Of a DNA stretch of 64,000 nucleotides, positions 7,159-63,561 are shown piece by piece. The stretch spans positions 342,683,402-342,747,401 of the forward strand of contig NC_085841.1 in assembly GCF_035594765.1 (NCBI RefSeq), given 5' to 3'. Position 1 is the first letter of the stretch; each line of letters opens with the position of its first letter. The notes beneath the pieces were generated by a model, which worked only from the letters and a program-made list of their open reading frames with translations, was not told the origin of the DNA and ran no database searches. The stretch comes from Anolis carolinensis (taxonomy: Eukaryota). Both the position numbers and the translations under genes were made by a program.

Positions 7159-7717
7159 GGGTGCTTCCAAACAGCCCCTTTAAAGCAGGAGTTACAACAT
7201 TTTAAAACGAGCCGTCCAGATGATGTCCTAGAGAAATGCAATTGCTTTTACTACAAAGCAGGAAAACCATGCTTTTTGGGAAGATAATTTATTAGTGGGT
7301 TTATTCCATGCCTTCTTGGAAATCCACTGTTACCGCTGTCTGGACTGCTCCCTCAAAAGTTATGGACTTTTGAGGGGACAGTACAGACCGCAGTGTCTGT
7401 GTTTTTCTGGCCTAAATTAGCCTGGAAAATGGTGAGAACAATAACCCTTTCCCCCCCCCCACCCCCCCCCCCCAAAACTCTTTTGAAAAATAAAATAACT
7501 TACCTGGCCTCCATTAGCTTGGTGTCGGAGCTCTCCTGGTGCATAGAAATAATGTGCCAGGAGAAAGGGGGAGAAGCGAGGTTCTGGGAGCGCATCTAGA
7601 CACCAGCCCCCAAAAGCACGCACTTTCCGGAGGGTGTGTGTGTAGATTAAGACCCAGGAACATTCACGTTTTCCAAAAATGAATGTTCTTGGTTTAAAGG
7701 GCTGTTTGGAAGTGCCC
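7159..7717. mobile_element. Non-autonomous DNA transposon (PIF/Harbinger-like MITE)
   Basis: Terminal inverted repeats gggtgcttccaaacagccc and gggctgtttggaagtgccc. Confidence 0.65.
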
Positions 7718-8894
7718 ACAAAGGTGGTTTCCAGTTCTCACAACCTAACTAGTCACCAGAGTCTGGGTTTGAACAGTTTAGTGTTGGAGCTGCATACATG
7801 GTAGAGCTTGGAAATATTACTCCAGGGAATTACATCTCCTATAATCATCCAGCCACCAGCAAGATCATGGGGCAACTTCATTGTGAAACTAAATCAAAGA
7901 CCAGTTTGCAATAAATTGCATTATTTGCTAAGAGGAGAGATCAGATTTATCCAGTTCATTGTGGATTGGGGACTGTGTGCGTTCCCATCCTGCCTTCACT
8001 ACCTAAAGAGTTCCCTCAGTTTCTTCAGTTTTAGTATGAAAGGATACCAGAAGAACTCCATGGGACCAGTCCGAAGCCCTATCTAGCCTACTGTTCTTTC
8101 TGCATAGTTGTCTGTGGAAAACCCACAAGTAGGTTAATGAGGGCCTCTTCCACAAAGCTGTATAAAATCCACATTGAACTAGATTATGTAGCAGTATGGA
8201 CTCAGATAATCCAGTTCAAAGAAGATATTGAGGATTTTCTGCCTTGATATTCTGATTTATATGGTCATGTGGAAGGACCCGAATTTAACCCCAACTCCTC
8301 TGCTTCTTGCTTTTCACCTTACTTCTCTTACTGTAAAGAATATACACATCATGATTAAAATATCTTGTGTCTTTACCTGTCTTTCTCTTGCATAGACCTT
8401 CTTTTCCTTTGGGCTGCTGTGGACCATGCTTATTGCTTGACTACTGCCTGTTTGTTAATCTGAACCTAACCTCTGAAACATATGCTGACTTCAGTCTCAA
8501 GCAGCCTTTGACCTTACCTCTTCTTTGAACCTTCTCTCTCACTTGTGCTCAGTCTCTCCCTGACATCTTGTATGTAAATCATCTTTGACTTGTTTTAGAT
8601 CTCAGGCTGACTTCGACATGACGCCAAATAAGAATCCTCTCACTTATATACGCACCATTATGGCAGTCCTTGCATATAGGTGAGTTGCTGCTTAGTTGAC
8701 ACTACCTATATTGGCAGCTATCATTACATCTTGTGATAGTGAGTTCCAAAGTTCCTAGCATTGGTTGAAGAAGTATATTATCTTACCTGTCTTGTATCTC
8801 CCACCATTTGCATTAATGGTTTGTTATTATTAGTATTACATTATTTACACACTTGTTAGACTGAACAATGCTGTCTCAGACTTTCATAATTTAC

Positions 8895-9498
8895 CTTTAA
8901 AGAATATGTAGTTAACTAAAACTAGTACAGTGTTTTGATCGAGACCCTTGACCAGTTGTGGAATTTTCCCATGGGTTTTCTTCTCCACGTATTCATTGAT
9001 TTGCTTTTCAGCTTCTGTGGGCTCCTGAAATTTTGCTGATAACACATCTGCTTCATATGAGGCATGGACATCATCCAAAAATTTCTGTAGTAGGTTTTGG
9101 CCATCTTTCACAAATAGAGCCTGACCGATATCAAGTTTGACCTTACTGTCAGGGTTAGTCAGCACAGAAAAGAGGTTATGAAACCCATCATGAATGTCTT
9201 TCTCCTGGATTTGTGTCAGATTAAAGGTGAGCCCCTCCAGAATCTGAGTGTGAGTAGTTGATCTTGCCCCCAGTGACAGGAGAGATAAGGCAGAAGAGAT
9301 GATGAGGGGTGAGAAGAAAACATTCTTGCCAGGTGATGCTGAAGAAATCTGCTCCAACAGGTTCAGCCCAAACTGAGCAGTGTTGGTATATATCTTAGCA
9401 GCTGCAACACTTGTATCATCATGGCCATTGATGTGATGGCCATGGGTGATAGTGCAGAGGCCAATAGTTAACAAACACACAGAGAGCACAGATTTCAT
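8895..9498 (-). CDS. SERPINA1: Serpin gene 1 (alpha-1-antitrypsin-like), coding exon 1 of 4
   Basis: ATG at 9498 follows a cag acceptor (exon starts 9515). Signal peptide MKSVLSVCLLTIGLCTITHG; serpin motifs NVFFSP, LGARSTT, LVNYIFFKG; G|gtaa donor at 8894; 604 bp, phase 1. Confidence 0.93.
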
Positions 9499-27678: not shown

Positions 27679-27882
27679 TCATTTTTCAGTTGGGTTCACA
27701 ACTTTCCCAAAGAATAGAATACTGTTTGTCATTTTATCACAAATGAGAAACAGGAAAGGTTTGTCACATTTGAAGACAGTTGGAGGAGGACTGGAAAAAG
27801 ACATGCGTACAAACTGTATCACGGTAACCGCTGCTGCCTCTGTTCCAGACTCGTGAACATCCACCACAGCCTTATGGATTGC
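27679..27882 (-). CDS. Serpin gene 2, final coding exon with RCL (P2-P1-P1' Arg-Met-Ser)
   Basis: AIHKAVVDVHESGTEAAAVTVIQFVRM|SFSSPPPTVFKCDKPF...GKVVNPTEK*; AATAAA at 27637-27642; total 428 aa. Confidence 0.93.
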   Translation of the reverse strand, partial: AIHKAVVDVHESGTEAAAVTVIQFVRMSFSSPPPTVFKCDKPFLFLICDKMTNSILFFGKVVNPTEK

Positions 27883-28145
27883 CTGGGAAGAAGGAACAGT
27901 AGAATTATTGTCTTCATACCATATGGAGAAAAGCAGAGGGACTTCTCATGAGGGACTTCTCATGATTACCCTGTGTCTTCTTGCCTTAATGTGAAGTTGT
28001 CTCACTTTAAGCAAAGTTGAGACACTCCAGAGTTTGCAGGAAATTCTGTAGTAGCAGCTATAGTCCAATCTTCTGTCCACACAAACAATGCGCCGTCACC
28101 CTTTCCCTGCACTGATCAATGCAGGGGGAAGGAATGACCCATAAA

Positions 28146-28580
28146 ATAATAGGATCATAGAGTTGGAAGAAACCCCCAGGGGCCATCCAGCCCAACCCTT
28201 TGCCTTGTATGAATATAGAATCAAAAGACCCCCAAAAGATGGCTATCCAGCTTTGCATAAAAGCTTCCAGAGAAGGTAACTCCACCACAATCCAAGGCAG
28301 CATATTCCACTGCTGAACACCTTTTACTGTCAGGAAGTTATTTCTGATATTTAGGTGGAATTCTTATTCCTGCAATTCGAATTCATTGCTCCATGCCCTA
28401 GTCTCCAGAGCAGTAGAAAAAAAGCCTGCCCCCCTTTTCAAATATTTTAAAATGGCTATCATGTCCCCTCTCAGCTTTCTTTTCTCCAAGCTAAACACAT
28501 CCAGCTCCCTAAGATAGGTTTGGTTTCCAAATCCTTGTTCATTTTGGTCACCCTTCTCTGGCCATGTTCTAGCTTGTCAA
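28146..28580 (-). mobile_element. CR1 LINE 3' fragment (last intron of gene 2)
   Basis: Reverse-complement CR1 tail atcatagagttggaag...ggccatccagcccaaccc, plus the ORF2 remnant DIDKLEHGQRRVTKM. Confidence 0.85.
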
Positions 28581-29029
28581 TGTCCCCACATCGCTGTTTC
28601 CCTTTTGGCCATGGAGCACCAAATGAACACTTGGCCATTGCTGATGTCAAAATGAGGTGTCCATACAACCAGCAAGAATGGGGAGAGGCAATATTGCTGA
28701 CCATATAGGCATCCCACTGAGACATTAGCAGATGTGAGAGGCAAGGACTGGCATTTGCATGGAGCTCTGTGCCTTGTAAGGAGCAGCGCAGTGATATGGA
28801 GCGACAGTCCAGCAGGGCCAATGCAGAGATAGGAAGAAACACTGGCAAGTGAAGATGAAATTAGGGAAGCTAAATAAGAAAGAATGAAATGTATGGACTT
28901 TGGGGGAGGAGCTGGACACTCATTGTCAGATTGGTACTTGCCTCTAATAGGTTACTTGCTTTCAGGGCTAAAAAGATTTTCAGGAAATGGTATGACAATA
29001 ATGGACAATAACTCCACCTCTGAACTTAC

Positions 29030-29177
29030 TTTAGAAACTTGCAGATTGCCTTCTTCAACAATTCCAGATAGATCAGCATTTCCATCAAAGACATGTGTCA
29101 CACCCAGTCTCTGGAACAAGGCTTTGACATCATAGGATTTAGACAGGGAAAATTTTGGAATGTACAAATCTAATTGT
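29030..29177 (-). CDS. Serpin gene 2, coding exon 3
   Basis: QLDLYIPKFSLSKSYDVK...ADLSGIVEEGNLQVSK; gtaagt donor; 148 bp. Confidence 0.93.
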
Positions 29178-29549
29178 CTGATGAAAAGAAAAACATGCAA
29201 TGTTATTTAGATCTCATCCTACAGTGTAAATGAAATTCTTAATTTCTGAGTTGTATAGGTCTCATGTGCTTCTTGCTTATCTAATATTTAACTAATTCAG
29301 CCTATGATACTGAGGATGACACCATAATAACAGCAGAAATACGGAGGGTAAGGGCTGGCAAAACATTCATGTGCTGGGACCTTTGTCCCATACCCTCAAT
29401 TTTTTAGGCGAGAGCTTTTAACACAATTAATTATGTGGAATTGGAGTCCATTAATAATGGAAACGCAGCACTTCCTAAACTGTCTTTAATGCTATAAGAA
29501 TCAATAACATAGCAACAGCATTTCAGAACAGCATACAGAAAAGGCTTAC

Positions 29550-29820
29550 TTGTATTCCAAGGCTTTTGCCCATTTGTACAGATGTCCTTTTACCAAACTA
29601 TCCTCCACTTGCTGCATTTTCCCTTCATCTGGAAGAATGAAGAATGCTGAAGCACCTCCTTTATATGGGATTTCCACCACTGAGCAAAACAGGTCATCAT
29701 CATGGAGATATTTGTAATGGCTGCTTTGGAACATCATGTTGACTTTCACTGTTGTGTCTGCATTTACAAAAAAATCTTCTTCTGTGATTGATTGAGTGTT
29801 GAAAGGGTGTTCCCAGAATC
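29550..29820 (-). CDS. Serpin gene 2, coding exon 2
   Basis: (G)FWEHPFNTQSITEEDFFV...VKVNMM...FFILPDEGKM...; AG acceptor and gtaagc donor; 271 bp. Confidence 0.92.
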
Positions 29821-29980
29821 CTTAGCATGCAAAGGAAAGACAAGGGTTGTTTTTTTTTTGGGTGTTCTATGAAATCCAGTATTCAGATAAATAGATGTGG
29901 CATACGAAATCATATAAGTGCAGTAAAAAATAAGACATATTATCCTTAAAAATGAGATCTTAAGGAAACAGACTCTAGAC

Positions 29981-30285
29981 ATCAGAATTTTTACTATATC
30001 TTAACCTTTAATTTAATTCTGATAGTAAGAACGAGAAAAATACACACATTTGGTTTCCAATGCCAGTCAAAAGAGGCCTGAATTTCTGAATCCAAATTTT
30101 GATTTGAGACCTTTCACACCAAATGGGATTATAAGTAAATGGAATTTAGAAATCCGTTTTTTAACTATAGCTTCAACTGTAATCTAATTCTGATAATAAG
30201 AATAGCAAAAATATATACATTTGGTTCGCAATGCCAGCCAAGAAAGGCCTGAAGATTTAATTTCTGGATCCAGATTCTGATTTGG
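29981..30285. repeat. Two-copy tandem duplication with ~170-bp period in a gene 2 intron
   Basis: taattctgatagtaagaa...catttggtttccaatgccagtcaa at ~30014 versus taattctgataataagaa...catttggttcgcaatgccagccaa at ~30185. Confidence 0.8.
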
Positions 30286-30430
30286 ACCCAAGTTTGGATC
30301 AGGAATCCATTCAAGTTGAATCGTGATCCAAACCATATCTTGTTATCAGCTCATTCTCTTAATATTTATCTTTTGCTGACTGAACATTATTATTGTTTTA
30401 TTTTTTCTTAGTTATCAATCTGCAGTGTAC

Positions 30431-31094
30431 CTTTAAAGAAGATGTAGTTAAGCAGAACCATTACAGTACTTGGATCCAGTTGATCAACTGCTTGGGGTAT
30501 TTTCCCGTGGGTTTTGTTCACTACATAATCATTTATCTGTTTTTTAGCAATGGTAGTGTTCCGGAAGTTGGAAGAGAAGCCTTCGGATTCATACAGGGTT
30601 TTGGCATCCTCTAAAAACTTAGGCAGAACTTTTAAGGATTCTTCTATGAACAAGGCGTTCCCTATGTTGATTTCTGCTTTGTTCTTTGGACGGTTAAGCA
30701 TATGGATGAGATGCTGGAAGCCTTCATGTAGCTCCTTCTCTTCCATCTCCGACAGGTTAAAAGCAAGTCCTTTGTGAATCTGAGACTGAGTCTCTGATTT
30801 AGCACCAAGGCTGAGCATCGCAAAGGCTGTGGAAATGCTCACTGGAGAGAAAAATACATTTTTTCCAGCCCCGTCAGAAGCAATTTGTCTGTACAATGTA
30901 AATGCAAAGTCAGCATTACTAGGGGCAATCTTATGGCACTTTGCTGTCTTATTGTCTTGTTCTTCGTCCAAATGCAGATGTTGATGTTCTGCTGGATTTT
31001 CATCTGTCTCCTGGTCATTGTGATGTCCTGGGAGGTGATGGCCGTGGACAACAAGGCCAATTGACAATAAGAAGAGGTAGATGATGTGCTTCAT
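30431..31094 (-). CDS. Serpin gene 2 (clade A), coding exon 1 of 4
   Basis: ATG at 31094 (MKHIIYLFLLSIGLVVHG signal peptide); IAPSNADFAF, NVFFSP, LLNYIFFKG; gtacac donor; 664 bp. Confidence 0.93.
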
Positions 31095-35372: not shown

Positions 35373-35570
35373 TCATTTTTCAAATGGATTTAGAATTTTC
35401 CCTGCAAAGAGGATGGTATGTGTTGCTTTATTAACAATTAGCAAGAGGAAAGGGTGGTTGCATATGATGTAAGTTTCAGGAGGACAACACCTTGCTGTAA
35501 TCTGTATAGCAGTGGCTGCCCCTGCCACAGTGCCACTCTCATGGATATCCACAACAGCCTTGTGAACAGC
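35373..35570 (-). CDS. Serpin gene 3, final coding exon with RCL (P1-P1'-P2' Arg-Cys-Cys)
   Basis: Translated by hand (absent from the ORF track): AVHKAVVDIHESGTVAGAATAIQITAR|CCPPETYIICNHPFLLLIVNKATHTILFAGKILNPFEK*; cag acceptor; total 427 aa. Confidence 0.92.
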   Translation of the reverse strand, partial: AVHKAVVDIHESGTVAGAATAIQITARCCPPETYIICNHPFLLLIVNKATHTILFAGKILNPFEK

Positions 35571-35811
35571 CTGTATGGAAATAAAAATATTTTATTGCTT
35601 ACATATGCAGAAGACACAGGGATGTCCTGATATTTGGCACTCTATCTCTAGTGCCAGGAATAAAATATCTCTATGTTCCATGGAATTATATGTATAAAAA
35701 AGGAATCTGTCTATAATGTGGGCTACAATAGCAACCCCTGATGAATATCACCAAAGATCAATGAAGTCCAATAATGATGTGTGTGTGTGCGCCTGCGAGT
35801 GTGTGTATGTG

Positions 35812-35878
<67 letters not shown>
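35812..35878. repeat. (TCTA)n microsatellite
   Basis: Direct reading. Confidence 0.95.
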
Positions 35879-35879
<1 letters not shown>

Positions 35880-36114
35880 ATTTACATTATTATATATAAT
35901 TATTTAAAAACTATTTTCAGGACAAATTACAAAACAAGCACCATCAGCATTTGTATTTTTATTCCATGAGGATCTCTACACTGATGAGTTTGCCTTAGTC
36001 TGGTAGAAAGAACTAGAAGATTAAAACTCTAATAATGACACTGGTGAAGACAATAATGCCAAAACACATTTCGCCTTTGTGTTATTTTTGACGTGTTTAT
36101 GGTCATTTACCTTT

Positions 36115-36362
36115 CATAGAATCATAGAATCCTAGAATAGTAGAGTTGGAAGAGACCTCATGGGCCATCCAGTCCAACCCCCTACCAAGAAGCAGGAAAT
36201 CGCATTCAAAGCACCCCCAACAGATGGCCATCCAGCCTCTGCTTAAAAGCCTCCAAAGAAGGAGCCTCCACCACAGCCCGGGGCAGAGAGTTCCACTGCC
36301 GAACAGCCCTCACTGTGAGGAAGTTCTTCCTGATGTTCAGGTGGAATCTCCTTTCCTGTAGT
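36115..36362 (-). mobile_element. Young CR1 3' end
   Basis: (CATAGAAT)n tail followed by reverse-complement CR1 3' UTR and ORF2 end. Confidence 0.9.
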
Positions 36363-37899
36363 TTCTCTCATTAAAGATCCATGCCCAGTGAACCCTCGTA
36401 TATTTTGTGTCACTGGTGTTATAAAATCATATGGACTATATCTTTCTTATAGATGGATTATTCATTGTTTGAGATATCCACTAGCAGGTGTCTTATTTGC
36501 CCAGTGATAACATGTAAATACATATTGAACATATGTGGACCTATTTCAGATAAATAACTATAGATTTGATTTATTATCGGGCACTTCTCTGGAGCAGTGT
36601 ACTGCCTTCAGGGCCAATTCATGCTTTCTCACTTGGTTAAGACATTTTAGGAAATAAAATGGCTTTGGAAGTGGAACATACAGCATCTCCCCTGAACTGC
36701 CCTACAAAATGCTCTTTATATGCTATTGCTGCCATTGAAGCATGGATAGTATTCCTAAAAGGACAGCTGAAGTTTATGTATCTACAACAAGGTGTCAAGG
36801 TACATTTCCTTTTCCACTTGCAGATCTCTGCCTATTCAGGTGAAGAATGGGGTTTTTGAGATGGGAATTTTGCTGCCTGTGAGCTATAAGTCATCCTGGG
36901 GCTTTTTTTGTTGGTCCTGGGCCACTGGCAGAGTCTCTGAAATTTTTATCACCACCAATATATAGGCTTTATTTGGCAAAGCATGACAATTTCCTCCTCT
37001 GGACTTTGTATTAAAACAAGGCATATCTTCTTCTGTCCCCATGGTGCATAGTAGTTTCTGGTGAGTTGGATTCCAAGGGTTTTTTTTAAAGTTTCAATTC
37101 AACTTTGCCCTGTTTTCTGCTTCTATAGGCAAAGTCAGTGGATACTTCAGAATTTGTAAGAAACTTCAGAGTATCCTGCACCTTGGAGGCAGTCTGGACA
37201 GCAGGACTTGATCTGAGTCAGCCTAAATCTACTGTTCAAATTGGACACCAGCACCATTGCTCTTCCATGGATAATGCCCATGTCACCGTTGTCAATGCTA
37301 GCTGGCGACAGAGCTCAGTGTAAACTCCTAGCCATCAGGGGGACCTTTGCTTACGTCAAAATGGAGTCTCTCCTTCACTAACTAGTAGGAAGAGCATTGC
37401 CTGCATGAAGGAGCAGAGATTGAAAGTTCAGAATCCAGGCTTGCTCTGGGACAGATTTACACTGGGCTAAATTGTCCAGTGTACATGAGCCCTTAGATCA
37501 TTTTTAAAAGGTATTGTACCTTGAAAGATTTGACATATGTCACAGACAGATTGTAACTACAGGCCTGAGCATTGTACAGTCTTGACTTAGTTCTATTTCC
37601 AGAGTTCTAGGGAACAGCAAGGTATTATATACTTGAATTGCTAGTGGACACAAACAAGTCATTTATTATTATTTCCACCTTATGACAAGGCTCTGTGATT
37701 TTTTTTATCCAAGACTGTGCCAGTAATGCCCATTCATAACTTCATAACTTACTGGGATATAGTCTATCTGAATATATGTGTAGTAATGAAAAGTTGCAGA
37801 TCCTGCTCCAGATGAAACATTAGATTCCATCACATTATAACTTGCTAAGTTCTTCTTGGTGTTAGTTATACTGATAATTATTCTCAATGCCATACTTAC

Positions 37900-38047
37900 T
37901 CTGGAAACCTTCAGATTGGGTTTTCCCGTTATTCCAGACAGGTCAGCATTTTCATTAAAGACATCAGTGATGCCCATTTTTTGCAGCAAATCTTTCACAT
38001 TGTAAGATGTAGAAAGTGACAGTTTTGGAATGAATAAATGGATTTCT
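37900..38047 (-). CDS. Serpin gene 3, coding exon 3
   Basis: EIHLFIPKLSLSTSYNVK...[16 protein letters not shown]; gtaagt donor; 148 bp. Confidence 0.93.
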
Positions 38048-40150: not shown

Positions 40151-40421
40151 CTAAGTGTTAAGGATGTTTGCCATTTAGCCAGAGTTTCACTTGATAAGGC
40201 ACTCTCGACTTGCTTCATTTTCCCTTGGTCTGGCAGAATGAAAAATGCAGAAGCATCTCCTTTATATGGGACTTCCACCACCCAGCAAGACAGATTGTGG
40301 TCGTAGAGAAAATTGAAAAAGTCTTGTCGATACATCATAAAGACTTTCACAGTGGTGTTTGCATCTGGAAAAAAGTCTGCTTCTCTAGTATTGTAAGGAT
40401 CAAAAGGTTTTTCCCAGTGAG
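40151..40421 (-). CDS. Serpin gene 3, coding exon 2
   Basis: (A)HWEKPFDPYNTREADFF...VKVFMM...FFILPDQGKM; gtgagt donor; 271 bp. Confidence 0.93.
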
Positions 40422-41670: not shown

Positions 41671-42337
41671 CTTTGAAGAAAATATAGTTTATAAGAATCA
41701 TTGCAGTCAGTGCATCCAGATTTTCCACTGCCTGGGCTATTTTCCCATGAGTTTTGGTTTGCACATACTCATTTATTTGCTTTTCAGCTGCTGTGGAATT
41801 GCTGAAGTTTGAAGAAAACCCTTCAGCAGCATATAAACTTTTAATGTCCTCCAGAAACTTTGGCAGTATTTTCAGTGTTTCATTCATGAACATGGCATTC
41901 CCTATCTCCACTTGTGCTTTGTTATTTGGGTTGCTAAGCGTGTGGATAAGCTGATGGAATCCTTTGTGGATCTCATTCTTCTCAATCTCAGACAGATTAA
42001 AAGCAAGACCTTCATAAATCTGGTTTTGGGTTTCAGATCTGGCACCCAGAACTAGCATAGCGAAAGCTGTGGAGATACTGAAGGGAGAGAAGAAAATATT
42101 TTTGGCAGCTGTGTTGGATGCTATGTGCCTGTAGAATCTGAATGCAAAATCAGCATTATTGGGAGCTATCTTTTCATAATATGTAGTCTTCTTTCCTTGT
42201 TCTTCTTCCAGGGGAGAATCTTGATCTTCAAATATGATTTTATCTCCATGACCATCTGGACCAATGTTGTCTCTTGGATGGTGTTGACAACAGACTTGAA
42301 GAACAATAAGCAACCAGGAAAGGTAAATGGGCTTCAT
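41671..42337 (-). CDS. Serpin gene 3 (clade A), coding exon 1 of 4
   Basis: ATG at 42337 (MKPIYLSWLLIVLQVCC); IAPNNADFAF, NIFFSP, LINYIFFKG; gtacgt donor; 667 bp. Confidence 0.93.
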
Positions 42338-42440: not shown

Positions 42441-42728
42441 AAGGTTCCCCTTGACATTAAGTCTAGTTGTCTCCGACTCTGGGAGGTGGTGCTCATCTCA
42501 ATTTCTAAGCTGAAGAGCCGGAGTTGTCTGTAGACGCATGGGGTGCTATTACCTTCCAGAAGCAATACCTATTGATCTACTCACATTTGCATGTTTTTTG
42601 AACTGCTAGGTTGGCAGAAGCTGAGCCTAATAGCGGGAGCTCACCCTACTCCCCGGATTTGAACCACTGACCTTTCAGGCAGCAAGTTCAGCAGCTCAAC
42701 AGTTTAACCCTCTGTGCCACCAGAGGGC
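42441..42728 (-). mobile_element. Sauria SINE
   Basis: Reverse complement matches recalled Sauria SINE blocks GGTGGCAC..AGGGTTAAAC..TGAGCTGCTGAACTTGCTG, GAGCTCCCG, TGCCAACCTAGCAGTTC, GCAAATGTGAGTAGATCAATAGG, CTTAATGTCAAGGGGAACCTTT. Confidence 0.85.
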
Positions 42729-44037: not shown

Positions 44038-47000
44038 ATGTGTAACCTATCCCTGCACTCAAGGCCATCAATAGTCAAGGTAAGCAAGAAATCATTTGTA
44101 TAGGATTTCAGTTTCATGATTTCAAACAGTGGGGCTCTGCCTCCAAGCATTCACAGATGAAAATAGGGTCATCCTTGTGAATGCCCAATGGACCAGGTTT
44201 ATATGTATCATATTAAAAGTATCTCCAAAGAATCTAGGGAACAATGAAATAGCTGTTGTACTCATTATCAGAAAACCTAAGCCAAGGATGCGCTGAAATA
44301 TTGGATAGTGTGTTTCTCCTATTTTATGGGTAGATAAGCATCATATTAGAGGAAGAGAAGAGTATATGAAACTGTAATTTCTCTGAGAGATCACTCTTTC
44401 TAACCAAAGATAAAGCTACCCAATTTGGCTCCCAACACTATATTTCTGAAATTTAAAATCTTCCCCTGACGTTCCCAAAATGTTCTGCCACTTCCAATAG
44501 GTCTTGTGTGGTAAACCAGTTTAATGATGGGTTTGATAATCACAAAAGAGGTTGGAAGGGAAGACAGTAGGTTCAGAGTGGTAGCAGCTGGCTGCTAGAA
44601 AAAAGTGAGCCTGTGCCATCCTCTGGAACATGGACCAATAGTATTCCTCATCTTGACATGTACAAGGTATTCCTCCCTACTACACAAATGGTTCATAGTC
44701 TAACAGAGCAATACAATCCAAAAGTGGATAGGATTCAGGGCTACTTGAACAAGGAATTCCTCTTAAAACATGAATGTTGTAATTTTATGTTTTGCATTTT
44801 GTTTTGTATGGCACCACTGGGTGCTATTTTGTAAGCTGCCCCAAGTCCCTGTGGGAGATGGTGAAAGGGTATAAAGAAAGATTATTATTATAATTATATT
44901 ATTACTTGCTAGATTGGATGGGAAGTTATTTAGTCATAGCTCCCAGAATACCTCTCAATACTGAACAGGTCTGCTGTGAGTTACAATCCAAGAGTATTTG
45001 GAGGGCCACACAATTCCCACACTTGTGCTGGATGATTTCCCTTACATCTGTGTGCATGTGTGCAAAAATTGAAAGTGGAATGGGACATTGAAAGGCCTTT
45101 GCTATTTGAATCCATCACAAATGTGTGCTTCTAAACATGACCCACCACTTTGATGTAGTGTCTACAAAAGCAAGCGTAGTCTTTAGATGTATTACCAAAA
45201 GTAAATTGATCAGATCACAGATCTTACACTCAGTTCAACTCTATTTTCACACTGTTCAAGACTCATTTGAAATACTATGTTGACATGAGCTTTAGATTCA
45301 TCATCCTGTGAAATTCTTGTAAGGAATAGTTGAAAAGATTGGGTATGTTTAGTCCGAAAAAAACAATTAAGGTGACACATGATAGCAGAAAAGGAGGTGT
45401 GTCTTCTTTTGTTTCAGTAGGCATCTCCAGAAAGAATACATGGAATACGTGGAAACTGCAGAGAAATAGACTGTCTGGATATGGGGAGAAGCAATTTCCC
45501 AGCGGATCAAACTAACTTGGGATATACTGCCAGGTGTTCCTTCCCTGAAAACTGGAAAGCCACCTGCCAAGCATACTTTTGGGGCCTACTGCACTTCATA
45601 TATAGCACCATGTAGCATATTGGACTCAACTGTGTATTTCTCATTTACATATTAAATTAGCATATGTGCAACAGTCATCCCTCTATATATGCAATTTCAA
45701 CTTTTGGAGATCTTATTACTATATTTATTAAAATGCAAGTTTTATTTTTTGTTAACATTTTCTTCCTTGGAATTTTAGGTCCTCTAGTGTCACTCTACAA
45801 TCAACTCCCGTCAGTCATACTGGAGGACCTAGATATTTATAGAGAGAACACCTCACTAGCAACATCTAGGTCTTCCAGTGTGATTCTGTGTTCTGCTCCC
45901 AGTAGATGTTGACCATAGAGTTGTGCTAGAAGATCTGAGAATTTCAGAGAAGTGTTATCTCAGGCCAAAATAAGAGAGTAATCATTTTAACCATTTCTGT
46001 GTCCCTAACCCCAGAAAATGTAGAGGACTGACTTGTTACTGATTTTTTTCTGGCACGAATAATGTGGGAACTGATCAAGATTGGGAGCATTGAGGATCTT
46101 TGCCCTTTCTGGTGGTCCATATCAGAATGGTGAGCTCACACATAACATTTGTATTGGAAGACAAGGAATGGAAACCTTCTTTTGAGTATAACTAGCAAAT
46201 GTGTTCACCCCAATTCTGTGGATATACAGAATTCCACCCCATATACATTTAAGAGGTTCGCTTTCTTTGGACATTTCAGAACTATATCTCAAATATTGTG
46301 GTAAAATATTGATTTATTGGTTTGTAAGTTTAGATTTTAGCTTGATGTCATCCTATGTGGAGATTCTGGACGAAAAAGCTTATACTTTGATGACCTATTA
46401 AAGTTCTGTGGTCCCTGAAATGAAGCATTCATTACTTTAATGTACACATTGGTTATCTTTCACAAATTACAAATCCATACAGGCAACATCACAAGTTCTG
46501 ATAATACAATCTGCGTGGCACTAGTTTAGGACATATTTCATGCTATCAGTATTCGGTACTTACCTAAAGTACCTGATTTGTGCATCAAGCATTCTGTTAA
46601 GTAAATGGAAGCTATTAATTTATTCCACCAAAATAGAGCAGTGAATATTGACTTGAATGCATAAACAAAGGCAGAGCAGAACTATGTACAAGTTATGCTT
46701 GGAGGGGTCTTATATCTTTCTATTGAAGAGCCATAGACCACTCTCACCATCTAGGATGAAAGGACAGGTTAGAATATGAATGGGGAAAGTACAGCTGTTG
46801 CAGTTCTGTTTTAGAGACTCCCAAATGTCCCTTTAACCCCACTAGAATTCCCCAAAAAATGTCAGTTGAAGAATCAGCAAGTGAACACTAAAAATTGAGA
46901 AAAACACACCACAAAATACAAAAACATTGCCAAAGCTCCCATTACCCCCAACTATTCTAAGCTCTCAAAATCAGCTGTATTTAAACCACTTCCAGGGACA

Positions 47001-48851: not shown

Positions 48852-49055
48852 TTATTTTTTGGTAGGGTTCAGAATCTTCCCAATGAAGAGGATACTCTGT
48901 GTTGGTAGATGAACAATTATCACCAGGAATGGTCTGTTGTAACTGATGGTAAGCGGAGGAGGAAGGTGAGCAGAACGGAATCTAAGCTCCATAGTGGTGA
49001 CAGCTGCTGCCTCTGTGCCACTCTCATTAACATCCAACACAGCCTTATGAATAAC
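48852..49055 (-). CDS. Serpin gene 4, final coding exon with RCL (P2-P1-P1'-P2' Phe-Arg-Ser-Ala)
   Basis: VIHKAVLDVNESGTEAAAVTTMELRFR|SAHLPPPLTISYNRPF...GKILNPTKK*; AATAAA at 48699-48704; total 430 aa. Confidence 0.93.
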   Translation of the reverse strand, partial: VIHKAVLDVNESGTEAAAVTTMELRFRSAHLPPPLTISYNRPFLVIIVHLPTQSILFIGKILNPTKK

Positions 49056-50375
49056 CTGTAAGAAAAGAACAGTTTTACTGTCTACAGATCATATCTGTCC
49101 ATATTTCACAGATGAAAATGCCAAAGCTTTGTAATAATTGCTGTTCATATATAATGGTAGGTGGTGGATTCCATATCCAGGGACAGTTATTTTTTTTCCA
49201 GGTGTTAAGGAAAATGTAAATGATCTACCCAGAGCACAAAATGTTAATCCTCAAATAGGTTCACTGACAGTTCCAAAGGAGATTCACCAACTGAATGACA
49301 TGAAAATCACCAATACCACTGGTCTCGGATGAAGGACCTTCTCATTAGAAATAGCTCAAGGATTGAGTAAAGTGTGGCCTCCCAGATGTAGGTGGCCAAT
49401 TGTGAGGGATCCTAGCAGCTGCAGTCCAACAATATCTGGACAGCCACATAATGCCCACACATGCTCTTAATCTAATTGCTTGATTCCAACTGAATTCAGT
49501 TAGTCAAATGAAGAGTTTAGAACAGACAATACTTATGTAAATCCCATTGACTCAATGGGTCTATTCTGATTGGGAGTAACAATTGATTTAGCCCAATGTA
49601 TGTACTGACCAGGATCAAAAATGCAAAATTCTGGTATTTTTTTTAACCCCATCTAGAGGAGACTATCTGAATCAATTGTTGAATGGTAAATCAAAATATG
49701 GGCTAACACGTGCAAGCTTTTTAAATCTCTTGGTGTCTTCAACAGGGAGCTTTGATGGTCTATGACAGAGAGAATGATGAGGTTCTGTACAAGCATAAAA
49801 ATAGATGTACTAAGAATTGTACTTTTTCATAGGTTGTGTAAGTGTGGTTATAACATATTAGTGCATCTCATTGCCCAAGTACACATGTAATCTTATTTTG
49901 CTTCCTCTTTGTTAATTTGGTGGGGGAGGGGAGAGATTTGATTGACAATCATATAACAGGGAGCAAATGTTTCAACAGATCCAACATGACAATTGTCATA
50001 GCTTAAAGTATATTAGATATATGTGTGATCATGCCTATAAGAGAAAATATGGAAGCAAGATGTTGCAGGCATTTGAAATAAGTTATACAAGGTTTGCTGT
50101 TGGCACCAGAAATTGCATCTAGGACAGTTAGGAAGAAAGAACAAACAATAGTTAATTCCTCTTGTTTTGGAAATGAAAAATCCAACTGTTATTTAGAATG
50201 GTCTCAATCTTTTATTTTTTTTAAAAAGCAACCCAAGTTTCGAGGTATATGCAATGTGGAAGTAAAGTGAAACCCGACAGTGAACACACTAACAATGCTT
50301 GGAACAAAACAAAACAGCAAAGCAATGAATACTTATTTAAACTGTGAGAAACTGCATGGAAATATTAAGCAATAC

Positions 50376-50523
50376 CTTTGAAACCACCAGGTCCTTTTCT
50401 CCAGTAATTCCAGACAGATCAGCATTATCATTAAACACAGCAGTTACGCCCATTCTTTCCATCAAGTCTTTGACATCATAAGTTGCAGAAACTGAAAATT
50501 TTGGGATGACTAGACCTATATTC
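50376..50523 (-). CDS. Serpin gene 4, coding exon 3
   Basis: NIGLVIPKFSVSATYDVK...[16 protein letters not shown]; gtattg donor; 148 bp. Confidence 0.93.
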
Positions 50524-50952
50524 CTAGTTAACAATAAGCAAAAACAGTCCAAATGTTCAATCACTAGGGATGTAATTATTTATTGGGTTTATTTTCAAAG
50601 AAAGCAACAAATAATTTTAGCCATTTTCATCTCACTGCAAGAAAGTCTTTAAAAACTACACAGTTTTCAAAGACTGTTCACAATATGTGTTTTTTTCTCA
50701 GAAAACAGCATTCTTTGCATATGAAATAGCATTTCCCCAGAAAATACAGCCCAGAAAATAATAGTTTGCATAGAAATATTATTTTCTGTGCTGAAAATGC
50801 TACACTGTGTCCACTTTTTCTCTAGTTAGCCCATTAGAACAGTCCTTTATTCTGTTTTGCCACTTTCACATTTGGTGTGAAGATGGACAGGCTCTTTTGG
50901 TTGCTGCTCTCAGACTTTGAGCTTTGACACCTGCCCCATTGCAGCATATTAT

Positions 50953-51203
50953 AGAGCCATGGTGGCGCAATGGGTTAAACTCTTTTGCCGGCTGAACTGA
51001 TGACCTAAAAGTTGGTGGTTTGAAACTATGAGACGGAGTGAGCTTTTGTCTGTCAGCTCTAGCTTCCCATGCAAAAACATGAGAGAAGCCCCCCGCAGGA
51101 TGATAACATATCTGGGAATCCCCTGGGCAACATCTTTGGAGACAGCTGATTCTCTCACACCAGACGTGACTTGCCTCAATTTTCTTCTAACACGATAAAA
51201 AAA
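50953..51203 (+). mobile_element. tRNA-derived SINE
   Basis: Head ggtggcgcaatgggttaaa, B-box-like ggtttgaaac, A-rich tail. Confidence 0.75.
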
Positions 51204-51600
51204 TAGAATAAAAATGTGAGGAACTGCCAAAGAAGATTCCAAGGATATGGCTGGACAGCAGAGGGCTAATTGACTCCTTGGGAGGGGTAATTAATGATCT
51301 CTGCTCCTAAATGTCACTTTCTCCTTTTCACCCTCTGTATTCCTTATGTACATTTCTACAAGGCAAGAAAAAATACCATGCAGAGTGGTTTGAAGTCATG
51401 TTCAGTGCTATCACACCCAGGCCTTGAACCAGTTCCTGGCTTGGCAATCTAAGATATGGAATTCAGAAACGAAATACTCCAAAATCATCCACATCGGTGC
51501 CTGAGATAATGACATCTTTATTTTCTGATGGATCAATGCATGCAGACTTAGTTTCATGCACAAAACTATTTAAACTACTGTCTATACAATTATCTTCAAG

Positions 51601-51732
51601 CAGGCATGGGAAAACTTTGGCCCTCTGGGTATTTTGGACCAACTCCCACAATTCCTAACACCCTACCAGCTATTAAAAATTGTGGGAGTTGAAGTCCAAC
51701 ACACCTGGATGGCCCAGGTTTGTCCATGCCTG
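51601..51732. mobile_element. Palindromic hAT-type MITE
   Basis: Same family as 32324-32457; TIRs caggcatggg and ccatgcctg. Confidence 0.8.
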
Positions 51733-52100
51733 ATATAAGGCATACATGAAACATAAATGAATGTTTAGAAATATTCCAAAATCTCAAAAACAGCAACAAC
51801 CCTGAAATTTTGGATAAGGAATACTCAGTCCACACAAATCCAGATATTACTAATTTTTTTTAAATCAATATCCTAAATTTTTTTCTGAAAGTTTGGGATC
51901 AATTGGAAAACAACAGTTTTTTAAAATGGGAGGCAGGAGCACTGTTTTGGATTTATCAGCACCAACCCATATTATTCCAGTTGAATCTCTATGTATGTCT
52001 TTGTGCTCATTTTAAAACAAATGTATTCAATTCAGTTTATACAACTATGTAATAAGTTAAGAGGAGCATCATTTTAAAAGAGCACACAGAAATGGCTTAC

Positions 52101-52371
52101 TCATGCCTAAAGGATTGTGTCCATTTGCTTAGATTTTCTTTTGCCAAGGCACCTTCCACATGCTCCAGTTTACCCTCATCTGGAAGAATGAAGAATGCGG
52201 TAGCATCTCCTTTGTAAGGAAGTTCCACTACCCAGGAAAAAAGATCTTCATCATGGATAAATTTGTAGTAGCCTTTTCGATGCATCATTTTGACTTTCAC
52301 CGTAGTATTTGCGTCCACAAAGAAGTCTCTTTCCTTGATTGATTGAGTGTCAAAAGGGTTTTCCCAGTAAG
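52101..52371 (-). CDS. Serpin gene 4, coding exon 2
   Basis: (A)YWENPFDTQSIKERDFFVDANTTVKVKMM...FFILPDEGKL; gtaagc donor; 271 bp. Confidence 0.93.
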
Positions 52372-52836
52372 CTTGGAAGAAAGAGATTAGGTATCAGAAC
52401 AATGAAAATGTTTAATACCCAAAAATTGTACCCAATGTTTATCATATATAGCAAAGACAATCATGCTCACTCCTGATAAAATGTTCTGGATCCCATCTTT
52501 GTTAAAACTCTCCCCTACCCTCCAGATTTTTTCCCATTGAGTGAAATTAAACAATGGGGGGGGGGGTGTTGATATATTTTTTGTATCTCAGGAGTTATTT
52601 CCAAAAAATCTTGTGAAGATTATATTATCACAAAAAAAAGTTTTACTGGGGAAAAATACATTTTTTACAACCATGTGTGCCATAATTTTATCATTTTAGT
52701 CCAACTAAGGTAGGTCTAGAGAGTTAATTGGTGAGTCAAAAAAAAGGTAAACCCCATTGATTCCATGAGTCTAGCCTCACCTGAGCCACCATAGGTTACT
52801 GAGCATGTATTCTGGTCAAGGCCACACTGTATATGT

Positions 52837-52969
52837 CAAGCATGGGCAAATTCAGCCCTCCAGGTGTTTTGGACTTCAACTCCCACAATTCCTAACAGCC
52901 TACCAGCTTTTAGGAATTGTGGGAGTTGGAGTCCAAAACACCTGGAGGGCCGAAGTTTGCCCATGCCTA
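52837..52969. mobile_element. Palindromic hAT MITE
   Basis: Same family as 32324-32457; perfect 8-bp TSD GTATATGT. Confidence 0.88.
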
Positions 52970-54739
52970 GTATATGTACATTATAGAAATCAAGGATGGT
53001 AGAAATGTTTGTATTTTGCTTGTTATTAAAGAAATCTGGTTTGGTTTTTTGGGTTTTTTTTGCCAAACTATATTTTGCCAAACCTCAAAAAGACAAAAGC
53101 TGAAAAAATACAGGGTAAGATACTATTTCCCCTACTTAGATATGAATATGTAGCTAAAGGCCCTTCCAGACAGGCCCTATAGCACAGGATCTCATCTCAG
53201 GTTTTCTGCTTTACACTGGATTATAGGAGTCCGCACTGCCAGATAATATGGGATAAGCAGACGACCTGGGTTCAGATCCTAGAATATAGGGTTTATTTGG
53301 AAGGGCCCTAAGTACATCTCCTGAACTGACATCCTACATGTAGTTTAAAAGCCATCAGTGGCATTGAGCAATGGGAGTCTGTTTTGCTGCCAATCAGGTT
53401 GTAACAGGGTAACATTTCCAGCCTTCTGCAGCAGGTGAGCAAGTCATGACAATCAGAACTCTGATTACAGTTCCTCATCACAGGCTCACTGAAGGCCCTT
53501 CCACATAGCCATATAACCCAAAATATCAAGGCAGAAAATCCACAATATCTGCTTTGAACTGGAATATGGCTGTGTGGAAGAGCCCCAAGACAGTGGTTTC
53601 TACTCTCTAGAGAATTCCCTAGTTACACAGAAATATATACATGTGCACATTAAAATATTTGTTTTTTAAAAATCACCTTGCCAAAATTTAGTCAGCATTC
53701 TATACTGCAGTTACAGATTTGTAACAAAGAATTATGGATCTCTAACCACTAAATATCCAGCAACATTGTCTAGTCTTGCTGTAAGACAAATACCATCCTA
53801 GCCCAGCTTAACAGCCAGATGCTAGATTGTTTGAAGGTGGTCTATTTCAAACTGCCATTTGGCTCTCAACTCCCTCCCAACAACAAGTAATAGTCAGAAG
53901 CAGTCTCTATTCGAGTGGTGTAGTGCACAAACTTTGGCCCTTCAAGTGTTTGGGACTCCAACTCCCAGGAGCCATAGCAATCTTGTCCAATGGCCAAAAA
54001 ATTCAAGGAGCTGAAGTTAAAAACACCTGGAATATCACAGGTTGTGCACCACTTCTACATCCCTGCTGCAACCTCATTTACTGGTGGGAGATGGCTTCAT
54101 CCTCCATGTATTCCAATTAGCTGCTGAATATACCTCCTTCACCTGTTGCAGGTAACCTGTGAGGCACGTCAGGCCAAGAGATATTACCAGATTACAGCTA
54201 AGTAGGTAATTTGCCAATGCAGAATATCAATGTTTGTCTGAAAAGAAGCTGCGCATTCATGATATGATGGCAGTAATTATGCTTATTTTTTCAAAAAGGC
54301 ATTAAGTAGCTAAAGAAACCAAAGGTCACACAAACTGAACATGTCTCTCAGTTAGGTCTCTAGATGGTTACAGGTAAAATAGAACATTTTCTTTCAGAAT
54401 AAATTATCAAGTGCTAAGAAGAAAACAAGGGTAAGTGGAAAGAAGAATGTGGCAGTCCAATACCCTGAGAACATTAAGTAAATTTGATTGATGGGAGCAT
54501 GAACTAAACATTGAGGTTAACTCATTGTACACTTTTCCCTCTTTACCAAACACTCTTACTTTTTATGCAAATCTGTATGTTCATCCTTACTCTAGAGCTA
54601 TAAAGACAGTATTTTAGCACTATGTAACATAACAAGGAAAGTCTGGGGTGATGTTGAGGAAGAGTAGATTCCTAGACAACTAAGTCCTATGCCAGACTGT
54701 CTGAAGCTCTAACAAAAACATCTTTACCCTTCAACTTAC

Positions 54740-55409
54740 CTTTGAAGAAGATGTAATTTACAAGAACCATGACAGCATTCGGGTCAAGTTCATTAAGTGC
54801 AGAGGATATTTTCCCATTCGTTTTGTTCTGCACATAATAATCAATCTGCTTTTTAGCCACACTGGGGTTGCTGAAGTTGGTAGAAAAACCATCGGCACCA
54901 TACAAGTTTTTGGCATCATCCAAAAAAGCAGGCAGGAACTTCTGTGATGGTTCTATAAATAAACCATTCCCTAAATTCACCTGTGCTTTGTTATTTGGTT
55001 GGTTAAGCACATAAAGGAGCTGGTGGAACCCTTCATGGATTTCCTTCTCCTCAATTTCCAGCAGATCAAAAGCAAGTCCTTTAAAAATCTCATCATGGGT
55101 TTCAGATTTGGCACCTAATGCCAACAAACTAAAAGCTGTGGAGATGCTGAGAGGAGAGAAGAAAATATTTTTGCCATCTGGATCTGAAACAATGTTTCTG
55201 TAGAACCGGAATGCAAAGTCAGCATTACTGGGAATTATCTTATGATAGACTGGAGATTTCTGTCCCTGCTGTTCTCTTGAAAGAGTGTACTGATGTTCAC
55301 GTGGATTGTTATCTTCATGATCATCTTGGTGACCATCATGTCCTGGTAGATGATGACAACAGACTTGAAGACTAGTCAGTAACAAGGAGAGGTTGATGAT
55401 GGACTTCAT
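54740..55409 (-). CDS. Serpin gene 4 (clade A), coding exon 1 of 4
   Basis: ATG at 55409 (MKSIINLSLLLTSLQVCC); IIPSNADFAF, NIFFSP, LVNYIFFKG; gtaagt donor; 670 bp. Confidence 0.93.
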
Positions 55410-61583: not shown

Positions 61584-61787
61584 CTAGTAATGTGATTCAG
61601 TCTCTTTAGGATTTGTAATTTTTCCCATCAGTAAGATGGACCTGCTCAAAGATTCAAAGACAATCACTATGAAAGGCCTATTAAATTTTATTATATGAGG
61701 GCGAGCATTGGGCACAATTTCAGTGACAACAGTAGAAGCAGCTTCAGTGCCATTCTCATGGACACGTAGATAAACTTGGTGAATTGC
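61584..61787 (-). CDS. Serpin gene 5, final coding exon with atypical RCL (P1-P1' Asn-Ala)
   Basis: AIHQVYLRVHENGTEAASTVVTEIVPN|ARPHIIKFNRPFIVIVFESLSRSILLMGKITNPKETESHY*; AATAAA motifs near 61536-61552. Confidence 0.92.
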   Translation of the reverse strand, partial: AIHQVYLRVHENGTEAASTVVTEIVPNARPHIIKFNRPFIVIVFESLSRSILLMGKITNPKETESHY

Positions 61788-62659
61788 CTGCAAGGAAGGG
61801 AAGCAAGAATTAGTAAAGGAACACACAATTTAAATTTAATTATATGGTATGCCCTGGTCCTTAAAATCACAGGATTCCACTTTTTGTGTGGAGGGGGACA
61901 TTGTCATGTGTCTCTAGATCAGTTGAAATATTTTGACCAATGATCTTAAAATGTTTGTGCAATCTACCTGAAACATCTAGGAGAGTTCTTGATCTTGGGA
62001 AACAAATGAACCTTTTCAGTATTGGCTCTGACAAAAACCTACCTAGTGTATCATTTTTGGTGTCATATCAGTGACCTAGACTCCTGCGGGAAGTCCATAA
62101 GCAGGAACTGGGGGATATGAGGGGTGTTGTAAGAAAATTATCTTGCTTTAAATTTTCAAAAAGTTAGTGCTGGCATGCAACCATTTGAAAATATGCCCAA
62201 AAATACATAGGCTGTGATTCTATTTAAAATCAGAAGAGCAGAACACTCTACTAACTGTTCTGATGCAGCAACCCAAGCATGAGCCCTATTAGCCAGACCA
62301 ACGTACAAGAGACAGCTCTCCGAAGGAGACATTGTATAGCTCTAAGCTTGTAAAAATACAACTACTTTCTTTTCCAACTACTTTCCACTACTTCTTTGGC
62401 TCTGCATCTGTAAAGGATGAAGATTATTTGGCATAATGTTGAACATCCAGAGATTTTGAGACCCACCATGAGTTTGTTATTTCTGTCTTAGCTTGGACAA
62501 GCATGGTGGTGATGCACAATAATTCCATATATTTTTCTCTACAGAATAATTGATATGCAATTCTTTTTCAAAAAGCAAATATTCACATAGAGAGAGAACA
62601 GAGCAGAAGTATTTTTCCTCTGTCAACAGAATAACTTTTCCATGGTAATTACTCATCCC

Positions 62660-63130
62660 CAAACGAATCAAGGAGTTGCTCCCCTTGCTCTTTCTTGGAA
62701 AAGCCTGTGATACATGTCCTTGTTATATCTCAAATGGATGTTTGTAACATGCTGTACATGGTGCTGCATTTGAAAAATACCAAGAAACCTCCTTTGACAC
62801 AAAGAAAATTCAATGAAGTATATGACTCCCTTGTAACAACAGTTTCACTGTCTGCCTGTCTGCTACCAGCTACTATTGAAAGTGCTGGTTTAGATCTGTC
62901 AACCTTATACAGATCAAGTTTAGGCTATCTGGTGGCCTGCGTTTTCCTACAAGCACCTGTCTGAATTGTAAAGACTTCTCAGGGGCTCTTTATTGTCTCA
63001 ATAACTTTACACACATCTTTGGTGGAAACATGGGAGGTACCTTCTTAATAACTGTGCCAAGACCTTGGTCCCCACTCCCCTAAAAATCCAGGATGGTTCC
63101 CTCTTTAAGGTTCCTCCATCAGCAAGTGAA
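62660..63130 (+). mobile_element. Decayed L2 fragment (last intron of gene 5)
   Basis: PVIHVLVISQMDVCNMLYMVLHLK resembles the L2 motif VIHALVTSRLDYCNALYxGLPLK. Confidence 0.6.
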
Positions 63131-63413
63131 AACTTTTTTCTTGTCTGATGAAACCTTAGGATCTCACTTCAACAGTATTCTAGTTTATTACTGATACTTT
63201 TAAATTAGATAGACTAAGAAGGTTTTAATTTCATATAGAGTTTAATTACATTTTAACAATAACTTTTTATGTATTTGTTTCCATGAGGGTTGTCTTATTT
63301 AAATTGTTGTTAGTGGCTTTTGTAAAATAGGATATCATTGAATTTTATAGGAAAAGTATTTTTTGCTATTCCTGGTTTAATTCCTGTTCTGTGATTAATT
63401 TTGAGGAGCATAC

Positions 63414-63561
63414 CTTGGAAACCTTCAGTTCAGGCTTTCCAGTAATTCCAGATAGATCTGCTTCATCTGTAAATATCTCAGTAATACCCATTCTTCTCAA
63501 CAATCCCCTGAGAACATATTTGGTATGTATGGTAAACCTTGGAAGATGAAGATTTATTCTC
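63414..63561 (-). CDS. Serpin gene 5 (5' part outside window), penultimate coding exon
   Basis: [49 protein letters not shown]; caacag acceptor and gtatgc donor; 148 bp. Confidence 0.92.

What the first reader, a model, noticed from the sequence alone, without database searches (positions are those of the whole stretch)
35373..35570. Secreted serpin with an Arg|Cys-Cys scissile site: candidate redox-switched inhibitor
Seen: this exon is missing from the ORF track. P1 Arg (35490-35492) is followed by two adjacent cysteines at P1' and P2' (35484-35489), with a third Cys at P10' (YIICNHPF). The hinge is still small-residue (GTVAGAAT), though P13 is Val instead of Glu. The protein has a signal peptide. 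Established: P1' is usually Ser in clade A, and Arg-Cys bonds are typical of intracellular clade-B serpins such as SERPINB6 and SERPINB8. Inference: in oxidising plasma these thiols could form a vicinal or tethering disulfide, dimers or mixed disulfides that switch inhibition of trypsin-like proteases, analogous to Met oxidation in antitrypsin.
Basis: partly seen in the sequence, partly recalled or inferred. Interest (0 to 1): 0.7.

Follow-up and report, generated by a model that had tools for sequence, protein, structure and literature searches.

The report
Lizard secreted serpin with cysteine-pair bait
An anole lizard gene, spliced in RNA-like data and encoding a likely secreted protease inhibitor, has gained two adjacent cysteines right beside its predicted cut site, which may let oxidation switch it off reversibly, a trick described for an inhibitor inside mammalian immune cells.

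Summary
35373-35570 (-) is the last exon of an intact clade-A serpin (427 aa), identical to the RefSeq Anolis carolinensis 'alpha-1-antiproteinase'. Contigs from three studies show it spliced, with no variant base at the Cys codons. The loop aligns without gaps to antitrypsin and PAI-1, placing Arg389 at P1 and Cys390-Cys391 at P1'-P2'. A. sagrei keeps both cysteines (P8-P4' 12/12 and 11/12, against 7/12 in both neighbouring genes); ten orthologues from other lizards have Pro-Arg/Gln followed by Phe or Ser and no loop cysteine. The loop was remodelled on the Anolis stem, then held. Two corrections: P13 Val is no defect (PAI-1 has it), and the third cysteine also occurs in paralogues lacking the pair, so a tether is unlikely. 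Best reading (about 0.4): an Arg-specific inhibitor whose exposed pair oxidises to a vicinal disulfide that reversibly blocks inhibition. That mechanism is published for intracellular SerpinB9; only the secreted, independently evolved clade-A setting is new. The close rival (0.35) is a plain change of protease target. No redox state, target or tissue was measured.

The parts
46564..46593 (-). Non-coding first exon (5' end not fixed), donor GTAAGT follows
   Evidence: Loose end of contigs in X1, X9, X20 maps here
41671..42337 (-). Coding exon 1 (ATG at 42337; residues 1-222), ends in phase 1
   Evidence: joint 40421/41671 in 4 of 4 runs
42287..42337 (-). Predicted signal peptide, about 17 residues (its Cys16-Cys17 would be removed)
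   Evidence: hydropathy and orthologue comparison; cleavage site inferred
40151..40421 (-). Coding exon 2, ends in phase 2
40285..40287 (-). Cys268, the old conserved cysteine of strand 2B; fourth and last Cys of the mature chain
   Evidence: Cys in 97 of 102 aligned sequences
37900..38047 (-). Coding exon 3, ends in phase 0
35373..35570 (-). Last coding exon: strand 5A end, hinge, reactive centre loop, strands 1C/4B/5B, stop
35514..35540 (-). Hinge P17-P9 (ESGTVAGAA), small residues kept, P13 Val as in PAI-1
35490..35492 (-). P1 Arg389
   Evidence: aligns to antitrypsin P1 and PAI-1 Arg; Arg in 12 of 13 orthologue rows
35484..35489 (-). P1'-P2' Cys390-Cys391, Anolis-specific
35460..35462 (-). 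Cys399 at the strand-1C position (P10'), also in paralogues without the pair

Best explanation
This is an intact, spliced Anolis clade-A serpin gene whose product is likely secreted, likely inhibits a trypsin-like protease that cuts after Arg389, and is predicted to be switched off reversibly when the adjacent Cys390-Cys391 pair oxidises to a vicinal disulfide. Steps: (1) shown - gene, splicing, codons, orthology, Anolis-specific gain of the cysteines and their retention in two species; (2) from established serpin knowledge - the protease cleaves P1-P1', the loop inserts as strand 4A and traps the enzyme; (3) inferred - the thiol form presents the extended P1'-P2' segment that the protease needs, a Cys-Cys ring (or cysteinylation) kinks or blocks it, and reductants restore it, so the inhibitor would be silenced where oxidants are released; (4) inferred - the loop was retargeted on the Anolis stem from Pro-Arg|Phe to Ala-Arg|Cys, now resembling PAI-1, which points to plasminogen-activator/plasmin/thrombin-type targets; (5) inferred - Cys399 is a buried substitution outside the switch.
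For: Loop remodelled in a burst: 11 of 23 fixed columns differ from phrynosomatid orthologues in P17-P10' against 31 of 315 elsewhere (Fisher p=1.4e-5), and all 3 changes to Cys lie in residues 390-399; a crude codon model expects 0.57 Cys among the 10 changed sites, P(>=3)=0.012, post hoc. Then held: P8-P4' 12/12 and 11/12 between anole species at 89% core identity, against 7/12 in both neighbouring genes. Hinge P17, P15, P14, P12, P10, P8 match the family majority; the AlphaFold model takes residues 375-388 as an inserted strand and matches cleaved serpins at about 1 A rmsd (weak). PAI-1 is the best PDB match of the loop alone, 10 of 17 identical over P17-P1 (E=0.019). Precedents: SerpinB9 is inactivated by oxidation of a cysteine pair in its loop to a vicinal disulfide (passages in PMC11222584, and PMC6378967); plasma serpins are redox-tuned (angiotensinogen disulfide; antitrypsin Met358/351, PMC8231800).
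Against: No redox, activity, target or tissue data. Only two species carry the pair; 0 of 10 orthologues in other lizards do, so the gene works without it. Each Cys is one base from the outgroup residue. The orthologous loop is equally conserved between Phrynosoma and Sceloporus (12/12) without any Cys, so conservation reflects a constrained loop, not thiols as such. Fast loop evolution is general in serpins (Hill and Hastie 1987, title seen in a reference list). Cys pairs at or beside the scissile bond recur in unrelated serpins (7 of 166 loops, a set enriched by the query). A chain that passes the ER into plasma may be oxidised once and for all, which would be a fixed structure rather than a switch (inference).
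Confidence: 0.4

Rival explanations
1. Plain change of target: the loop was reshaped for a new Arg-specific protease, and the cysteines are small prime-side residues (Cys standing in for Ser/Ala), or form a fixed disulfide, with no regulatory role.
For: Six of the nine Anolis-derived loop changes are not to Cys, and four land on the PAI-1 residue (P13, P7, P2, P5'). G256D, Y258F and K307Q also changed at otherwise invariant sites, which may be exosite changes (inference). P1' Cys is common among serpins, including some with apparent signal peptides (P0261, P0284).
Against: Three gains of Cys within 10 residues and none among 31 differences elsewhere (P about 0.012). Exposed thiols in a secreted loop are unlikely to be chemically silent (inference; SerpinB9 precedent).
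Confidence: 0.35
2. The exposed cysteines link the serpin covalently to itself or to another plasma protein (dimer, carrier, or thiol-mediated ER retention), which masks the loop until reduction.
For: The mature chain has four Cys (268, 390, 391, 399); 268 and 399 sit at positions that are buried in antitrypsin (recalled), leaving the pair exposed.
Against: No partner known; an adjacent pair can satisfy itself; a cross-link at P1'/P2' would block the conserved P1 Arg.
Confidence: 0.1
3. The protein is no longer an inhibitor (substrate-type serpin or hormone carrier such as the anole corticosteroid-binding globulin), and loop changes reflect that.
For: P13 Val and P11 Gly are found in only 3 of 102 aligned sequences; one A. 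sagrei allele has Gly-Gly at P11-P10. A CBG gene was reported in A. carolinensis (review passage; primary paper not held).
Against: Inward-facing hinge residues stay small, P1 Arg is kept, the loop is more conserved than in neighbours; the DHFTW stretch engineered into antichymotrypsin to make a binding globulin (6hge alignment) reads NKATH here.
Confidence: 0.08
4. Overlapping reactive sites: Cys390 serves as a second P1 for elastase-like or cysteine proteases, besides Arg389.
For: SERPINB1 uses adjacent Phe343 and Cys344 as two P1 sites (passage in PMC8231800).
Against: Needs a register one residue longer than the gapless alignments give; the following residues are Cys-Pro-Pro.
Confidence: 0.07

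Closest known systems
SerpinB9 (PI-9), intracellular clade B
   Same: Adjacent cysteine pair in the reactive loop whose oxidation to a vicinal disulfide reversibly inhibits the serpin (secondary passages; the P1'-P2' position in non-rodent mammals is recalled, primary paper not held).
   Different: This protein is clade A by gene structure and sequence, has a signal peptide and six N-glycosylation sequons, P1 Arg, and gained the pair independently; its redox behaviour is untested.
Alpha-1-antitrypsin-like clade A / group V2 serpins
   Same: Pfam Serpin 7.6e-125; best PDB matches are antitrypsin, antichymotrypsin, kallistatin, protein C inhibitor; three coding introns at the V2 positions and phases; lies in a tandem clade-A cluster.
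   Different: Not the true antitrypsin orthologue (that is the Met|Ser gene at 3205-9396 by loop motif); belongs to a lizard-specific paralogue clade; P1'-P2' Cys-Cys instead of Ser-X; oxidation would act on thiols, not Met.
PAI-1 (SERPINE1)
   Same: Loop P17-P1 10 of 17 identical, including P13 Val and Ala-Arg at P2-P1.
   Different: Different clade and gene structure (group V3); prime side Met-Ala rather than Cys-Cys; the resemblance is weak statistically (E=0.019) and best read as convergence or chance.
Angiotensinogen redox switch
   Same: Secreted clade-A/V2 serpin with a labile disulfide whose state varies in plasma.
   Different: That bond links the N-terminal tail to the body and tunes renin cleavage; it is not in the reactive loop.
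Mouse Serpina3g (Spi2A)
   Same: Clade A serpin recalled to carry a Cys pair at the scissile bond and to be redox-sensitive (recalled; searches returned no passage confirming it).
   Different: Described as acting on lysosomal proteases inside T cells; not secreted (recalled).

Membership tests
Clade A / group V2 serpin | Three coding introns at 192a, 282b, 331c | tested here: met
   Definition from PMC4476131 passage; introns fall in phase 1 after YIFFK, phase 2 in the Arg of TLR|E, phase 0 after LKVSR, confirmed by contig joints
Clade A / group V2 serpin | Full serpin domain, closest to antitrypsin-like proteins | tested here: met
Clade A / group V2 serpin | Signal peptide and secretion | tested here: inconclusive
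   Hydrophobic N-terminus shared with orthologues; no predictor or plasma data
Inhibitory serpin | Hinge with Glu P17, Gly P15, Thr P14 and small P12-P9 | tested here: met
   P13 Val shared with PAI-1
Inhibitory serpin | 17-residue hinge-to-P1 register | tested here: met
   gapless alignment to antitrypsin and PAI-1
Inhibitory serpin | Forms a covalent complex with a protease | not testable with these tools
   needs assay
SerpinB9-type redox-switched serpin (works like) | Conserved adjacent Cys pair at the scissile bond | tested here: met
   kept in 3 of 3 Anolis sequences, two species; absent in 10 of 10 other orthologues
SerpinB9-type redox-switched serpin (works like) | Vicinal disulfide forms and reversibly abolishes inhibition | not testable with these tools
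Clade B serpin / SerpinB9 (membership) | No signal peptide, clade-B gene structure and sequence | tested here: not met
   V2 introns, N-terminal hydrophobic segment, clade-A best matches; the genome's clade-B-like loops lie on another contig
Corticosteroid-binding globulin | Steroid-pocket residues of the strand 4B-5B turn (DHFTW in the engineered binding globulin) | tested here: not met
   reads NKATH (alignment to 6hge); reptile CBG residues themselves not available

The most novel reading that the evidence does not exclude
Anoles independently evolved a secreted, PAI-1-like clade-A inhibitor with a reversible thiol switch at its scissile bond, poised near plasma redox potential; loss of the strand-1C aromatic (Cys399) might also let it slip into a latent form in which Cys399 locks onto the pair, giving a redox-timed extracellular inhibitor not described in the papers searched.
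Probability: 0.15. Interest if true: 0.7.

Novelty: new variant of a known kind. Interest (0 to 1): 0.4.

Why it matters
If the pair is a working switch, it would be a natural extracellular version of the SerpinB9 mechanism, evolved independently in another clade, and a reversible counterpart to methionine oxidation of antitrypsin. The non-Anolis orthologues (Pro-Arg|Phe-Gly) give a ready natural control, and the protein would be a template for redox-gated serpin design. If not, it is a lineage-specific retargeting of one paralogue in an ordinary serpin cluster.

Tried and rejected
Sequencing or assembly error: rejected. Pseudogene: rejected (spliced contigs). P13 Val as a sign of lost inhibition: rejected (Val at P13 in 29 of 170 parsed loops, a set enriched by the query). 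Cys399 tether: not favoured (13 of 166 loops have it without a prime-side Cys against 7 with, Fisher p=0.049: a weak association in a query-biased set, reported as a point against my rejection). More anole orthologues: a search of longer proteins gave 2 hits of 27 candidates and one of shorter proteins 0 of 3, so only two species were available. No listed run is on record as RNA, so tissue and level are unknown; three runs laid nothing. The AlphaFold model came out loop-inserted and gave no coordinates, so sulfur distances could not be measured. The careful tree did not finish; the quick tree is used. Primary papers on SerpinB9 oxidation, the angiotensinogen switch and avian/anole CBG were not held. 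Searches gave no passage on Serpina3g cysteines; one search gave nothing useful on extracellular vicinal disulfides. Earlier scan notes: none. No complex prediction was sent: no partner is known.

Full report
Observation. The minus strand at 35570-35373 reads AVHKAVVDIHESGTVAGAATAIQITARCCPPETYIICNHPF...NPFEK-stop. Three upstream coding exons (42337-41671, 40421-40151, 38047-37900) join it with canonical splice sites into a 427-residue frame without stops, identical to the RefSeq A. carolinensis protein XP_016846236.1/XP_062824500.1. The exon drops out of a 60-aa ORF list because its frame from the first start codon is 59 aa. A UniRef model of the same gene (A0A803TZF0) lacks the exon and runs into the intron.

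The sequence is real and spliced. Of 24 runs listed, 20 hold the stretch and none is on record as RNA. All 4 runs laid (3 samples, 3 studies) have contigs joining the three introns, and none shows another letter in the last exon. In one search, 1 of 4 runs laid, again without differences; 3 laid nothing. Contigs say nothing about tissue or level. A non-coding first exon ends at 46564.

What it is. A full serpin domain (Pfam 7.6e-125), closest to antitrypsin-like structures, with the three group-V2 introns (definition in passages of PMC4476131; positions), a hydrophobic N-terminus like its orthologues and six N-glycosylation sequons. It lies in a tandem clade-A cluster: 10 of the 21 last-exon matches in the genome are on this contig within about 150 kb. 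The loop aligns without gaps to antitrypsin, Arg389 on the P1 Met and Cys390-Cys391 on Ser-Ile. Searched alone, the loop matches PAI-1 best (E=0.019; 10 of 17 identical over P17-P1, including P13 Val), so P13 Val is compatible with inhibition. The AlphaFold model (pLDDT 84, 102 sequences) places 375-388 as an inserted strand and leaves 389-402 as coil, matching cleaved serpins; this says only that the loop can be modelled as strand 4A.

Evolution. A quick tree of 51 selected proteins, built without the loop exon, puts the gene in a 13-row lizard clade (SH-aLRT 97) with Phrynosoma and Sceloporus as sisters (the careful search did not finish). P1 is Arg in 12 of 13 rows; the 10 non-Anolis rows all have Pro at P2, Phe (7) or Ser (3) at P1', and no loop Cys. 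Both A. sagrei sequences keep Arg-Cys-Cys and Cys399. Among 102 aligned sauropsid sequences (of the 120 listed plus cluster members; long fusions and some partial ones left out), Cys at P1' or P2' occurs only in these 3. Fixed differences between Anolis and phrynosomatids: 11 of 23 columns in P17-P10', 31 of 315 elsewhere (p=1.4e-5); all 3 changes to Cys are in 390-399. Each is one base from the outgroup residue; a crude model gives P(>=3 Cys)=0.012, post hoc. Between the two anoles P8-P4' is 12/12 and 11/12, against 7/12 in both neighbouring genes, but the phrynosomatid orthologues are also 12/12 without any Cys. The picture is a constrained loop that jumped once on the Anolis stem. Four of nine derived changes land on the PAI-1 residue, which may be convergence or chance.

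The third cysteine. Cys399 aligns to the strand-1C Phe of antitrypsin, a buried position eight residues along an extended segment from the pair (recalled structure). It also occurs in 5 Anolis paralogue sequences without the pair and in L007. In a query-enriched set of distant serpins it is found with a prime-side Cys in 7 loops and without in 13, of 166 (p=0.049). A tether in the native fold is therefore unlikely, though not excluded for a latent form.

Mechanism. Shown: gene, splicing, codons, orthology, lineage-specific gain and retention. From established serpin knowledge: cleavage after P1 Arg and trapping by loop insertion. Inferred: secretion; an Arg-specific target, changed from the ancestral one; and reversible loss of activity when the pair closes into a vicinal disulfide or is cysteinylated. 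The direction is taken from SerpinB9, which oxidation of a loop cysteine pair inactivates (passages in PMC11222584, and PMC6378967; the primary paper was not held; the P1'-P2' position in non-rodent mammals is recalled). Plasma serpins can be redox-tuned: angiotensinogen and antitrypsin Met358/351 (passages in PMC8231800). The weak point is that a secreted pair may be oxidised permanently. I put a working switch at 0.4, plain retargeting at 0.35, covalent partners at 0.1, loss of inhibition or carrier role at 0.08 and a second P1 at Cys390 at 0.07.

Novelty. The gene is annotated and the mechanism is published for an intracellular serpin; Cys pairs at or beside the scissile bond recur in unrelated serpins (7 of 166 loops: an archaeal protein, a spider protein with two domains, and unnamed fragments). 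I found no paper on this protein or on such a pair in a secreted serpin: searches (listings; passages read; no supplements read; subscription journals are largely outside the library). Verdict: observation confirmed, interpretation plausible but untested and partly corrected; a new variant of a known kind; interest 0.4.

Noticed in passing
window 3205-63563 (- strand): Tandem cluster of clade-A serpins with different loops: Met|Ser antitrypsin-like (3205-9396), Arg-Met|Ser (27682-31082), this gene, Phe-Arg|Ser (48855-55397) and the 3' part of a fifth (61602-63563).
   Followed up: partly
window 61602-61790 (-), L017: Last exon with a less typical hinge (Ser-Thr-Val-Val at P10-P7) and Asn|Ala at P1-P1'; candidate non-inhibitory or carrier serpin.
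   Followed up: no
window 27682-27888 (-), L002, and L007: Paralogues with Cys at the strand-1C position plus a second Cys nine residues later; A. sagrei has several diverged copies of the L002 gene (P0022, P0026, P0141, P0143). Repeated gain of the strand-1C Cys in Anolis is unexplained.
   Followed up: partly
window 37708-37899 (-): UniRef model A0A803TZF0 of this gene reads into intron 4 and lacks the reactive loop; RefSeq has the right exon.
   Followed up: yes
window 42585-42613 (-): In run X19 the contig's 5' end matches this stretch, which is followed by a GTGAGT donor, suggesting an alternative first exon within what looks like a short interspersed repeat (read by eye; repeat label recalled).
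   Followed up: no
window 46564-46593 (-): The non-coding first exon holds two ATGs out of frame with the main start; one short frame ends on a stop overlapping the main ATG (read by eye).
   Followed up: no
window 35777-35888 and 36110-36370: An (AGAT)n microsatellite and a high-copy repeat in the last intron.
   Followed up: no
P0229 (unnamed ENA cluster of 9): An unrelated serpin fragment with the same Ala-Arg|Cys-Cys loop and a Cys at the strand-1C position.
   Followed up: partly
L019 (G000 C3): Clade-B-like last exon with a stop inside the reactive loop, away from the main clade-B cluster; likely a pseudogene.
   Followed up: no
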